DNA of 64,000 bases, taken from assembly GCF_035594765.1 (NCBI RefSeq), contig NC_085844.1, forward strand, positions 13,593,923 to 13,657,922, read 5' to 3'. Every line of letters starts with the position of its first letter. Within the stretch, counting starts at the first letter, position 1. The notes under the pieces were generated by a model, which was not told where the DNA came from, did no database searches, and saw nothing but the letters and a program-made list of their open reading frames with translations. The translations under genes and the position numbers were made by a program. This document shows, one piece after another, positions 22,841 through 51,314 of the stretch. This DNA is from Anolis carolinensis. Taxonomy: Eukaryota.

Positions 22841-23365
22841 CAGGGGTCGCCAAACTACGGCCCGCGGGCCACATGCGGCCCGTCGGAGCTATTTATCCGG
22901 CCCGCGGGGGCAGTAGCTCCCTCCTCCTCTGCCAAGAAAGGTGTGTGTGGCAAGGAGAAAGAGGAAAAGGCCTTTCCCTTCTCCCTCACCCCACGTGCAC
23001 CTTTTCTGCTGCCACTGCCGCCAAGGAAGGAGCATGCAGGGCGAACGAGGAGGCAGGGAAGTTGAGTGCCTTTCTCGCCTCGCTCGCCCCGCGCACTCCT
23101 TTCCCGCCGCCGCTGTCGAGGAAGGAGTGCGCGGGGCGAGCGAGGAGAGAAAGCCACTCACCTTCCCTGCCTCCTCGCTCGCCCTGCGCGCCCCTTTCCC
23201 GCCGCTGCCGTCGTGCACTCCTTCCTCGACTATCATTATTACTATCATTGTATGACACAGCAAACAAGATAGATATGTTGGATTTCGTATCACAAAATCA
23301 CAAGTCAAACACTTCCCAAGTGTCTAGGACTGTGTGATGTATTTTCGGATGATGTGCGCAGATCC

Positions 23366-29328: not shown

Positions 29329-30333
29329 CAACGAAGCCAAAACAAAGTTGATCACAACAACATATGTTATAGAACTCCAATATATAGAAGAAGATCTACA
29401 AGCCACTCTAATCACCTTTGCAGAAGCATACAAAAAGCTTGGCCTCTCACTGGACATGGAGAAAACCTACGTGCTCTATTAGCAGGCATCCAATCCCTCT
29501 GCAACACCAGAAATACAGTTTAACAATGTAACATTAGAAAATGTTGATCATTTCTGTTACCTTGGCAACCACCTATCCACAAAAATCAACATCGACACTG
29601 AAATGCAACACCTTCTGAGCTCTGCGAGTGCAGCATTTTTTGAATGAAACAGAGAGTGTTTGAGGTTTGGGACCAAGATGCTTATTTATAAAGCTATTGT
29701 TCTCTCAATTCTTTTATATGCCTGTAAAATGTGGCCCATCTACAAACAGTCCACTTCTGGAACAAGTCAATCATTGTTGCCTCCCAAAAATCCTGCAAAT
29801 CTCTTGAGAAGACAGACAAATGTCAGCGTTCTGGAAGAAGCAAAGACCAACAACATTGAAGCAATGCTCCTACACCATCAACTCCGCTGGACTGGCCATA
29901 TTGTCCAAATGCCCGATCACCATCTCCCAAAGCAGTTACTATACTCCCAACTTAGGAACGGAAAATGGAATGTTGGTGGACAGGAAAAGAGATTGAAAGA
30001 TGAGCCTAAAGCCAACCTTAAAAACTGTGGTATTGACACTGAGAAGTAGGAAGCCCTGGCCCTTGAGTGCTCTAGCTGGAGGTCAGCTGTGACCAGCAGT
30101 GCTATGGAATTCAAAGAGGCATGAATGGAGGGCGAAAGGGATAAATGTGTCAAGAGGAAGACATGTCGAGAAAACCCTTGTCGGGACCGCCTTCCATCTG
30201 GAAACCAATGTCATCACTGCAAAAGAACATGCAAATCAAGAATAGGTCTCTACAGTCACCTACATACCCACCACTAAGACCCTACACTTGGAAGGCAATC
30301 ATACCCGGCCGTGAGTGATAGTTTATGATGATA
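29329..30333 (+). mobile_element. 5'-truncated RTE-clade LINE inserted into a Tigger-like MITE (~29243-30480)
   Basis: Degenerate RT/C-terminal motifs EEDLQATL..FAEAYKKLGL, YKAIVLSILLYAC, QLRWTGHIVQMPDHHLPKQLLYSQL; 11-bp TSD TACAATGCTGT (29318-29328 and 30334-30344). Confidence 0.88.
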
Positions 30334-35253: not shown

Positions 35254-35514
35254 CAGATTTTCAAAGTGTCTTCTGAGTAGCAGGCTGGCAGCTGTTATTT
35301 AAGACATTTCCATGGATTAGCCTTTACTTCTTGCCTCTCTTCCCTAAACCTGAAAGCCATAATGAATCTTAAAGAGCTCAGAAACAAAATTATTGTTTGG
35401 TGATGGAAAGTTGACTGTGGTCCTTTGCTTAATGTCTGCATCACTTGTTGTTTTCTGCCAGCTAAAAAGAGATGTGTGAATGAATAACAGGATTTTTTGC
35501 TTTGTATTCTTTAG

Positions 35515-35715
35515 TTATTCAGATGCTCTTCTGGATCATGGATGTTGCTCTGTCAATTCATGTGTGGGTTGTGCCCTTGCGTGTCGCCGGAGTCCGCGGC
35601 TGTTAACCAATGGCTACTATGTTCTCACAGAGGATAGCTTTCTGTCTGATGAAGAGGGGAATATTACACTGAGTCCATCACAGACAAGTGTCACTTATAA
35701 AGAAAAGTTGGTTAG
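35515..35715 (+). CDS. TMEM71: TMEM71 internal exon: (S)YSDALLDHGCCSVNSCVGCALACRRSPRLLTNGYYVLTEDSFLSDEEGNITLSPSQTSVTYKEKLV(R)
   Basis: CRRSPRLLTNGYY..TEDSFL.D..GNITL.PSQTSV.YKE.LVR is the recalled TMEM71 signature; ttctttag acceptor, AG|GTGTGT donor; expected synteny. Confidence 0.92.
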
Positions 35716-48039: not shown

Positions 48040-48129
48040 GCCTGACATTCAAAATACTTCTGGTCTCAGGCATTTCGGATAAAAGGAGATTCAAGAAAGA
48101 AAGAGTCAGGAAATGCTTGGTGTCGTTTG

Positions 48130-48345
48130 GAGACCGGAAGTTAATGAGGTCTGCCTCTCACTTTGATCACTTTGCCTCTTTGCGCCGAGGCTCCGCCCCT
48201 TTCGCCAACCGCCATTAACGGACGCGGCGCCCGGTTGCCATGGCAACCAAAGGCGCCGCGTCCGTTATTGGCGGTTGGCGAAAAGGTTGCCGTGGCAACC
48301 GTGTACCGCGTCCGTTATTGGCTGTCGGCGAAAGAGAGCTGAGAA
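48130..48345 (+). promoter_or_regulatory. DNAAF11: DNAAF11/LRRC6 CpG promoter with two RFX X-boxes, MYB-type, CCAAT, GC-box and ETS motifs
   Basis: GGTTGCCATGGCAACC (48233-48248), GGTTGCCGTGGCAACC (48285-48300), CCGTTATTGG x2, CTCCGCCCC (48191-48199), ACCGGAAG (~48133-48140); directly upstream of ATG 48358. Confidence 0.88.
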
Positions 48346-48357
48346 AAGGAAGCAGCC

Positions 48358-48367
48358 ATGGTGCGAA
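48358..48367 (+). CDS. DNAAF11: DNAAF11/LRRC6 coding exon 1: MVR(I)
   Basis: GCAGCCATGG Kozak, 10 coding nt, A|GTAAGC donor, in phase with exon 2. Confidence 0.88.
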
Positions 48368-48634
48368 GTAAGCCGCCCTCTTTCTTGGAAGTTGTAGTTT
48401 TACAAGGTTTCTCACCTCCCTTGCCTTGAGGCATGGCAGTGAAAGTGGTACCAAGCTGCATTAATTCTACAGTGTAGCTCCATCTTCATATGTATCTTTT
48501 ATAGAAAGACATTTCAATACGTTTATTGGTGGTATATTTACAATATGTATGTGTTTTCATTATTCTGTAACTCGCCTCCAGCCATGAAATACAGTGATAA
48601 ATGCAATTATTATTATTATTATTATTATTTTATT

Positions 48635-51146: not shown

Positions 51147-51314
51147 TCACAGAAGAACTCGTCAGGCAGCGGTCAGAGCACAATAATTGTGAGATCTTTT
51201 CCTTGGAAGAAATCTCCTTGCACCAACAGGATATAGAGCGAATAGAACACCTGGACCGATGGTGCCGGGATTTGAAAATCCTCTATCTCCAAAACAACCT
51301 CATACCTAAAATTG
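51147..51314 (+). CDS. DNAAF11: DNAAF11 exon 2: (I)[55 protein letters not shown]
   Basis: 168 bp, tttttgcag / G|GTAAGC; matches the LRRC6 N-terminal LRRs. Confidence 0.96.

What the first reader, a model, noticed from the sequence alone, without database searches (positions are those of the whole stretch)
48200..48283. DNAAF11 promoter is an ~84-bp near-perfect palindrome centred on an RFX X-box
Seen: TTTCGCCAACCGCCATTAACGGACGCGGCGCC (48200-48231) and GGCGCCGCGTCCGTTATTGGCGGTTGGCGAAA (48252-48283) are reverse complements at 31/32 positions. They flank the perfect 16-bp X-box GGTTGCCATGGCAACC. Established: RFX factors drive ciliary genes, and DNAAF11 is an axonemal dynein assembly factor. Inference: an inverted duplication gave the dimeric RFX site symmetric MYB-type sites (TAACGG/CCGTTA) on both sides. 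The GC-rich stem could extrude a cruciform or support bidirectional initiation.
Basis: partly seen in the sequence, partly recalled or inferred. Interest (0 to 1): 0.7.

Follow-up and report, generated by a model that had tools for sequence, protein, structure and literature searches.

The report
Triplicated cilia-gene promoter module in lizard
In an anole lizard, a 34-base piece of the promoter of the cilia gene DNAAF11 is present three times, once in mirror image, around two matches to the RFX binding site; it likely arose by DNA copying slips and likely works as an ordinary cluster of binding sites, not as a special folded DNA structure.

Summary
The palindrome is real: arms 48200-48231 and 48252-48283 match at 31 of 32, and contigs from four independent studies span it. 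The gene is DNAAF11 (LRRC6) of an Anolis lizard. A second X-box (48285-48300) and a third arm copy (48301-48334) follow, so the layout is mirror arm, X-box, arm, X-box, arm, ATG. The arm is single-copy in the genome and aligns to the single X-box-to-ATG segment held for a bird-like orthologue, so it is old promoter sequence copied locally, once in tandem and once inverted (likely template switching). The bird-like sequence lacks the MYB motif. Cruciform extrusion is unlikely (20-nt spacer, 11 of 20 G+C), and I found no head-to-head gene. Single-copy inverted repeats with arms of 25 bp or more lay near 1 of 130 other X-box sites and 1 of 69 control promoter sites, so X-boxes are not special seeds. 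Verdict: a clean new example of known promoter growth by local duplication; effect on expression untested. This scan noted the same kind of event before on other DNA (e1-562389, e1-9887744).

The parts
48101..48400 (.). Small CpG island holding the whole element and exon 1
   Evidence: 200-bp windows with GC 0.58 and CpG observed/expected 1.1-1.3
48193..48198 (-). GC box (Sp/KLF-type word, motif recalled) just outside the left arm
   Evidence: motif scan
48200..48231 (-). Arm A, inverted copy of the unit arm; holds a MYB-type word at 48216-48221; its one mismatch (48215) removes the CCAAT word
48232..48232 (.). Spacer base: C in the assembly, A in 4 of 4 runs that cover it
48233..48248 (.). 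X-box 1, perfect 16-bp palindrome (one of 13 such perfect 16-mers in the genome); contains an out-of-frame ATG at 48240
48252..48283 (+). Arm B, direct copy; MYB-type word 48262-48267, CCAAT on the minus strand 48267-48271
48285..48300 (.).
48301..48334 (+). Arm C, third and most diverged copy, in the position of the bird-like orthologue's segment; MYB-type word 48312-48317, CCAAT on the minus strand 48317-48321
48244..48367 (+). Part covered by a spliced contig: at least 114 nt of leader (arms B and C, X-box 2) plus coding exon 1; ATG at 48358, donor GT at 48368
   Evidence: run X19, one contig, loose end equals the start of exon 2
51147..51314 (+). DNAAF11/LRRC6 exon 2
   Evidence: 55 residues 100% identical to an Anolis DNAAF11 cluster; later exons to 60555

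Best explanation
The element is the proximal promoter and leader of lizard DNAAF11, in which one old unit (X-box plus about 34 bp) was likely copied twice by replication slips, once in tandem and once inverted by a short-range template switch, and it likely works as ordinary double-stranded DNA carrying two RFX sites and extra partner sites. Shown: the three copies, their uniqueness in the genome, homology of the unit to a bird-like orthologue, position at the 5' end of a spliced transcript. Inferred: RFX dimers (RFX1-3) bind both X-boxes; MYB-family and NF-Y proteins may use the copied words; the added sites modestly raise or buffer expression in motile-ciliated cells and spermatogenic cells. 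The mirror symmetry is a by-product of how the copy was made. The order of the two copying events is not resolved.
For: Unit copies: A-B 31 of 34, A-C 28 of 34, B-C 27 of 34 aligned columns. The 17-bp arm core occurs 3 times in 1.85 Gb at up to 1 mismatch, all here; the 201-bp region has no other match. The 53 nt before the ATG in bird-like locus L081 align to mid-X-box 2 through the ATG, 0 of 5000 shuffles as good, and to each unit, 0 of 3000 each. Fish-like L082 has a single X-box at -34 and no long inverted repeat. Mouse Lrrc6 is among 28 core genes bound by RFX1-3 and down in Rfx2 and Rfx3 mutants, and MYB and NF-Y motifs are enriched in RFX peaks (PMC7498320, passages). Two X-boxes 15-162 bp apart are normal at HEATR2 (PMC4168999, passages). 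Template switching makes such repeats at yeast promoters, arms 10-48 bp, spacer up to 70 bp; expansion raised GRE2 expression fourfold (PMC13100816, parts 1-3 of 7).
Against: No close outgroup: L081 begins inside the X-box, so extra upstream copies in birds cannot be excluded, and runs of two other organisms laid nothing at 80%. No binding or reporter data. The MYB word is absent from the bird-like sequence. In the yeast study one of two tested expansions (ERT1) changed nothing, so the extra copies may be neutral. No direct repeat of this kind was found in 199 other regulatory contexts, so two events at one promoter is rare and may point to retention by selection or to one complex event.
Confidence: 0.55

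Rival explanations
1. Same origin, but the extra copies are neutral passengers: one X-box does the work and arms A and B are tolerated leftovers.
For: Similar single-copy inverted repeats lie near about 1% of regulatory contexts whatever the motif (1 of 130 X-box, 1 of 69 YY1-type; Fisher p = 1). The fish-like orthologue has one X-box. ERT1 expansion had no effect in yeast (PMC13100816).
Against: Both X-boxes remain near-perfect and the core shared by the three arms is intact although B and C differ at 7 of 34 columns; the arms show no change in four samples. Both points are weak.
Confidence: 0.3
2. The palindrome extrudes a DNA cruciform under transcription-driven supercoiling, and this competes with RFX binding at X-box 1 as a switch.
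For: Each strand folds at about -49 to -51 kcal/mol. A and B are closer to each other than to C, which hairpin-driven homogenisation would also give.
Against: Central 20 nt hold 11 G+C, against 1-3 in extruding PATRRs; a 9-bp spacer with four near-centre mismatches abolished extrusion there (PMC1851657, passages). Computed cost of two hairpins against the duplex is 34 kcal/mol, against 19 for two ordinary repeat hairpins in the window (no junction or supercoiling terms). Recent copying explains the A-B identity equally well.
Confidence: 0.05
3. Transcripts that start upstream of 48200 fold into a 32-bp RNA stem that acts as a microRNA-like precursor or as a brake on translation, helped by the ATG inside X-box 1.
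For: Geometry is close to the preferred 35-bp stem with a loop of 10 nt or more, and template switches have made new microRNAs (10.1101/2023.04.19.537475, abstract and opening). The X-box 1 ATG is in a strong start context (recalled) and opens a 55-codon out-of-frame ORF.
Against: The one spliced contig begins at 48244, after arm A and after that ATG (a contig cannot show a true start). Rfam hits are generic hairpins far below cut-off (44.9 against 149 bits). The 3' flank can fold on X-box 2.
Confidence: 0.05
4. The mirror arm serves to drive a functional antisense transcript (bidirectional promoter).
For: Arm A carries the unit in reverse next to a GC box. Some antisense initiation is common at CpG-island promoters (recalled).
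Against: The upstream gene found, TMEM71 (exon 35546-35710), is on the plus strand 12.5 kb away; the kilobase upstream holds microsatellites and repeats. I did not search all frames for other genes.
Confidence: 0.04
5. Assembly artefact, or the remains of a transposon with terminal inverted repeats.
For: The other four inverted repeats with arms of 32 bp or more in the window are all multi-copy repeats.
Against: Four studies' contigs span it; single-copy; flanks show no target-site duplication; homologous to a bird-like promoter segment.
Confidence: 0.01

Closest known systems
Inverted-repeat expansion at promoters by short-range template switching (yeast GRE2, ERT1, YLR055C: PMC13100816, parts 1-3 of 7 read; great-ape four-point model: PMC7954356, passages read)
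   Same: Near-perfect arms within the reported 10-48 bp range, spacer under 70 bp, near the start of a gene, copying a binding-site word to the other arm.
   Different: Vertebrate ciliary promoter; combined with a tandem copy of the same unit; the pre-event state is not shown because no close outgroup was in reach.
[quoted passage not shown]
   Same: Neighbouring sites of common descent about 50 bp apart (period here 52 bp), diverging afterwards by point changes.
   Different: That work is a statistical result on fly modules; here the copies can be seen by eye and one is inverted.
RFX X-box promoters of motile-cilia genes (HEATR2/DNAAF5 double X-box: PMC4168999; mouse Lrrc6 as core RFX target: PMC7498320; Xenopus multiciliated-cell promoters: PMC5245798; passages read)
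   Same: Strong palindromic X-box near the start, a second one within 15-162 bp, MYB and NF-Y words nearby, no Forkhead word in the G+C-rich promoter.
   Different: The second X-box here is a recognisable duplicate with its flank; the 32-bp mirror flanks were not seen at 65 other X-box contexts.
Cruciform-forming palindromic AT-rich repeats, PATRR11/17/22 (PMC1851657, passages read)
   Same: Inverted repeat able to form hairpins on single strands.
   Different: 84 bp against about 190-600 bp; G+C-rich, asymmetric centre against AT-rich, symmetric centre.

Membership tests
RFX X-box ciliary promoter | Match to RYYNYY N1-3 RRNRAC (consensus from PMC4168999) | tested here: met
   Two strong matches at -124 and -72 from the ATG, one weak at -236
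RFX X-box ciliary promoter | Lies at the 5' end of a ciliary gene | tested here: met
   DNAAF11 identity; spliced contig from 48244 into exon 2; exact start site not mapped
RFX X-box ciliary promoter | X-box kept in orthologues | tested here: met
   Fish-like L082 full match at -34; bird-like L081 right half only, contig cut; 7 of 9 metazoan-like upstream regions scanned had a match to the loose consensus, no shuffle control
RFX X-box ciliary promoter | RFX binding and RFX-dependent expression in this species | not testable with these tools
   Shown for mouse Lrrc6 only (PMC7498320, passages)
Template-switch inverted duplication | Near-perfect reverse-complement arms a short distance apart | tested here: met
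   31 of 32, spacer 20 nt
Template-switch inverted duplication | Local, single-copy origin rather than a mobile element | tested here: met
Template-switch inverted duplication | Outgroup shows the state before the event and fixes the switch points | tested here: inconclusive
   L081 holds only 53 nt upstream; L082 too distant; two other organisms' runs laid nothing
Cruciform-extruding palindrome (PATRR type) | AT-rich centre (1-3 G+C in central 20 bp) | tested here: not met
   11 of 20
Cruciform-extruding palindrome (PATRR type) | Perfect central symmetry | tested here: not met
   20-nt spacer with the X-box off-centre, 1 nt against 3 nt
Cruciform-extruding palindrome (PATRR type) | Extrusion shown on supercoiled DNA | not testable with these tools
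   needs bench work
Head-to-head bidirectional promoter | Divergent gene within about 1 kb (criterion recalled) | tested here: not met
   Upstream gene located is TMEM71 on the same strand, 12.5 kb away; non-coding antisense RNA untested
microRNA precursor | About 35-bp stem with a loop of 10 nt or more | tested here: met
   32-bp stem, 20-nt loop that can itself pair
microRNA precursor | Both arms in one transcript | tested here: inconclusive
   The one spliced contig starts at 48244, omitting arm A
microRNA precursor | Match to a known family at its cut-off | tested here: not met
   Best of 5 Rfam hits 44.9 against 149 bits
MITE or DNA transposon | Many copies and a target-site duplication | tested here: not met
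   One locus only; flanks differ

The most novel reading that the evidence does not exclude
The mirror itself is functional: arms A and B are kept alike by hairpin-driven copying or selection, and the choice of start site becomes a switch. Starts upstream of the mirror give a leader with a 32-bp stem and an out-of-frame ATG in its loop, which would be silenced or diced into a small RNA, while RFX-driven starts inside or after X-box 1 give translatable DNAAF11 message. One palindromic RFX site would then serve as activator in DNA and brake in RNA.
Probability: 0.06. Interest if true: 0.65.

Novelty: new member of a known kind. Interest (0 to 1): 0.27.

Why it matters
It is an unusually readable case of a vertebrate promoter growing by local copying: one ancestral RFX unit, seen once in the part of a bird-like orthologue that was held, is present three times in a lizard. 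With the many squamate genomes available elsewhere the two events could be dated and tested in simple reporters, which bears on how clusters of like binding sites arise and whether orientation matters. It does not point to a new regulatory mechanism.

Tried and rejected
X-box palindromes as general seeds of long mirrors: rejected; only this locus among 66 distinct contexts had long inverted flanks (score 29, next best 8), and nearby inverted repeats were no commoner than at YY1-type sites. Transposon origin: rejected. Close outgroup: runs X22 and X23 of two other organisms laid nothing at 80%, which is no proof of absence. No listed holder is on record as RNA; X19 is taken as RNA-derived only because its contig is spliced at the exact exon junction. 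X19 holds no contig over arm A or upstream; this absence is not used as evidence on antisense RNA. X1 has no cover over 48097-48362, not interpretable. Order of events: one site groups B with C against the outgroup, another groups A with B but only in one of two alignments; A and C share spacer length and last base; unresolved. PDB search of exon 2 found nothing. The protein atlas gave no result. Earlier scan notes on look-alike stretches in other genomes: none. Paper searches for 'DNAAF11 + promoter + inverted repeat' and 'X-box + RFX + cruciform' returned 0; 'LRRC6 + promoter + X-box + RFX' returned 5, two of which I searched for passages. The library lacks most subscription journals, and I read no supplements; the mouse ChIP peak tables of PMC7498320 could bear on where RFX sits at Lrrc6.

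Full report
Observation. The two arms are at the stated coordinates and match as reverse complements at 31 of 32 positions; the 20-nt spacer holds the perfect 16-bp X-box at 48233-48248, one base from the left arm and three from the right. The hairpin folds at -49.8 kcal/mol, z = -10.25, 0 of 200 shuffles as good. In 300 dinucleotide shuffles of the 300-bp island the longest arm averaged 8.3 and never passed 13. I laid 8 of the 24 runs listed, 6 of them of the same organism label. X3, X4, X8 and X13, from four studies, each hold one contig across the whole palindrome with unchanged arms; X1 has no cover there; X19 begins at 48244. All four covering runs read A at 48232 where the assembly has C. 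The feature is therefore genuine and apparently shared among individuals.

Gene and position. Exon 2 (51147-51314) gives 55 residues identical to an Anolis DNAAF11 cluster, and the named hits among the best 120 listed (of 871) are mostly DNAAF11, LRRC6 or tilB. Further exons follow to 60555. The X19 contig covers 48244-48367 and continues with the first letters of exon 2, which fixes the ATG at 48358 and shows that arm B, X-box 2 and arm C can lie in the leader (one run; a contig cannot show a true start). The element fills a small CpG island. The upstream gene I located is TMEM71, on the same strand, 12.5 kb away.

The repeat scan shows a third copy of the arm and a second X-box. The layout is arm A (inverted), X-box 1, arm B, X-box 2, arm C, 23 bp, ATG, with a period of 52 bp between the X-boxes. 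Over 34 aligned columns A and B share 31, A and C 28, B and C 27. Each arm has a MYB-type word (YAACG/TG, PMC2797782, passages); B and C also have CCAAT, and the single A-B mismatch falls in that word. No Forkhead word (motif recalled) was found in 48050-48420, in line with Xenopus multiciliated-cell promoters, where Rfx motifs dominate and Forkhead motifs are rare (PMC5245798, passages).

Where the unit came from. The 201-bp region matches only itself in the 1.85-Gb genome, and the 17-bp arm core occurs three times at up to one mismatch, all here. The four other inverted repeats in the window with arms of 32 bp or more are multi-copy repeats. A scan of metagenome contigs with exon 2 returned 66 loci; I examined 17, and two looked vertebrate. 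L081, whose exon is identical to that of 33 of the 120 proteins held, with bird names, keeps 53 nt before its ATG, beginning inside an X-box half. These align to the lizard stretch from mid X-box 2 to the ATG better than all 5000 shuffles, and to each of the three units better than all 3000 shuffles. So the arm is old promoter or leader sequence. The bird-like copy has CCGGAA (ETS-like, recalled) where the lizard has the MYB word. Fish-like L082 has one X-box at -34 with an adjoining CCAAT word and no long inverted repeat. L081 is cut too short to show whether birds have further copies upstream. Against this outgroup one site groups B with C and one alignment-dependent site groups A with B, while A and C share spacer length and final base; tandem-then-inversion and inversion-then-tandem both remain open.

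Is this special to X-boxes? The 14-bp X-box core occurs 199 times against 3 for its reversed control; the 16-bp forms at 25 places. I fetched 50 of the 199 and all 25; after dropping 9 duplicates, 66 contexts remained, and only X-box 1 had long inverted flanks. A wider test took 200 bp on each side of 130 other X-box contexts (60 from the above, 70 of 120 sites of a second variant) and 69 control contexts (70 fetched of 285 sites of a recalled YY1-type motif, 1 duplicate dropped). Inverted repeats with arms of 25 bp or more that are not high-copy were found at 1 of 130 (L067) and 1 of 69 (L243); I set aside L204 and L280 (high-copy hairpins) and L080 (arms around a TA run). Fisher p = 1. The sets are not matched: 35 of 130 against 51 of 69 were CpG-island-like. 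No direct repeat of 24 bp or more was found in any of the 199, so the tandem part is rarer than the inverted part. Of 9 close X-box pairs genome-wide (control 3), 4 show a repeat signature: this one, L067, and two AT-rich cases that look repeat-derived.

How it most likely works. RFX dimers likely bind both X-boxes on duplex DNA: mouse Lrrc6 is one of 28 core targets bound by RFX1-3 and down in both Rfx2 and Rfx3 mutants, and MYB and NF-Y motifs are enriched in RFX peaks (PMC7498320, passages); paired X-boxes are usual at HEATR2 (PMC4168999, passages). The inverted arm is what a short-range template switch leaves (PMC7954356, passages), and such events are frequent at yeast promoters, with a fourfold rise in expression in one tested case and no change in the other (PMC13100816, parts 1-3 of 7). 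The tandem copy fits module formation by local duplication at distances up to about 50 bp (PMC3188502, abstract). Binding, effect on expression and the mutational route are inferred, not shown.

Cruciform, RNA hairpin, bidirectional firing. Extrusion in vivo needs an AT-rich, symmetric centre, and a 9-bp spacer with four near-centre mismatches abolished it in PATRR22 (PMC1851657, passages). Here the centre has 11 of 20 G+C and a 20-nt spacer, and converting duplex to two hairpins costs 34 kcal/mol against about 19 for two ordinary repeat hairpins in the window (no junction or supercoiling terms). A hairpin on single strands during replication is plausible and could homogenise A and B. The RNA hairpin has microRNA-like proportions, but the only spliced contig omits arm A and the Rfam hits are far below cut-off. 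No divergent gene was found.

Novelty and verdict. My searches found no paper on this element (partial library). The mechanism and the promoter type are known, and this scan's earlier notes describe the same kinds of event on other DNA (AI notes, not checked by me). New member of a known kind; interest 0.27. The most novel reading left open, a start-site switch between a hairpin-blocked and a translatable leader, gets probability 0.06.

Noticed in passing
L067:1577-1652 (G000:C9): A second inverted duplication that doubles an X-box: 27-bp arms each holding an X-box around a GC-box spacer, with a third X-box 60 bp away. Gene not identified.
   Followed up: partly
L147 (G000:C1:37442500-37448800); also L006/L007, L014/L015, L016/L017: A young LTR element family (about 820-860 bp terminal repeats, 99.9-100% alike; one 993-residue ORF with SCAN, protease and integrase domains, no reverse-transcriptase hit) carries a perfect X-box core in its terminal repeat and supplies many of the 199 genomic sites. 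It may use RFX for germline expression (inference). SCAN-bearing Gypsy elements of Anolis are known (recalled).
   Followed up: partly
L243 (G000:C2:124828836-124829348): Inverted repeat with 26-bp arms, not seen in other loci held, in a CpG-rich YY1-type context; each arm holds a CCGGAA word.
   Followed up: no
window 48232 and 48164: Assembly has C at 48232 where 4 of 4 covering runs have A; run X8 has a 4-bp insertion behind 48164.
   Followed up: no
window 23070-23153: Another 84-bp inverted repeat with 32-bp arms; part of a multi-copy repeat with at least 400 matches, often in tandem arrays of about 190 bp. It mimics a CpG island.
   Followed up: partly
window 35408-35713 and proteins P0047, P0053, P0100: Several bird proteins are annotated as TMEM71-DNAAF11 fusions that join TMEM71 sequence to DNAAF11 exon 2; the two genes lie in tandem here too. 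Readthrough or annotation error not examined.
   Followed up: no
window 29556-29569: A further X-box match about 6 kb before the TMEM71 exon found.
   Followed up: no
L154 (G000:C11): Nested inverted repeats (44- and 39-bp arms) built from X-box-like words and ATT runs.
   Followed up: no
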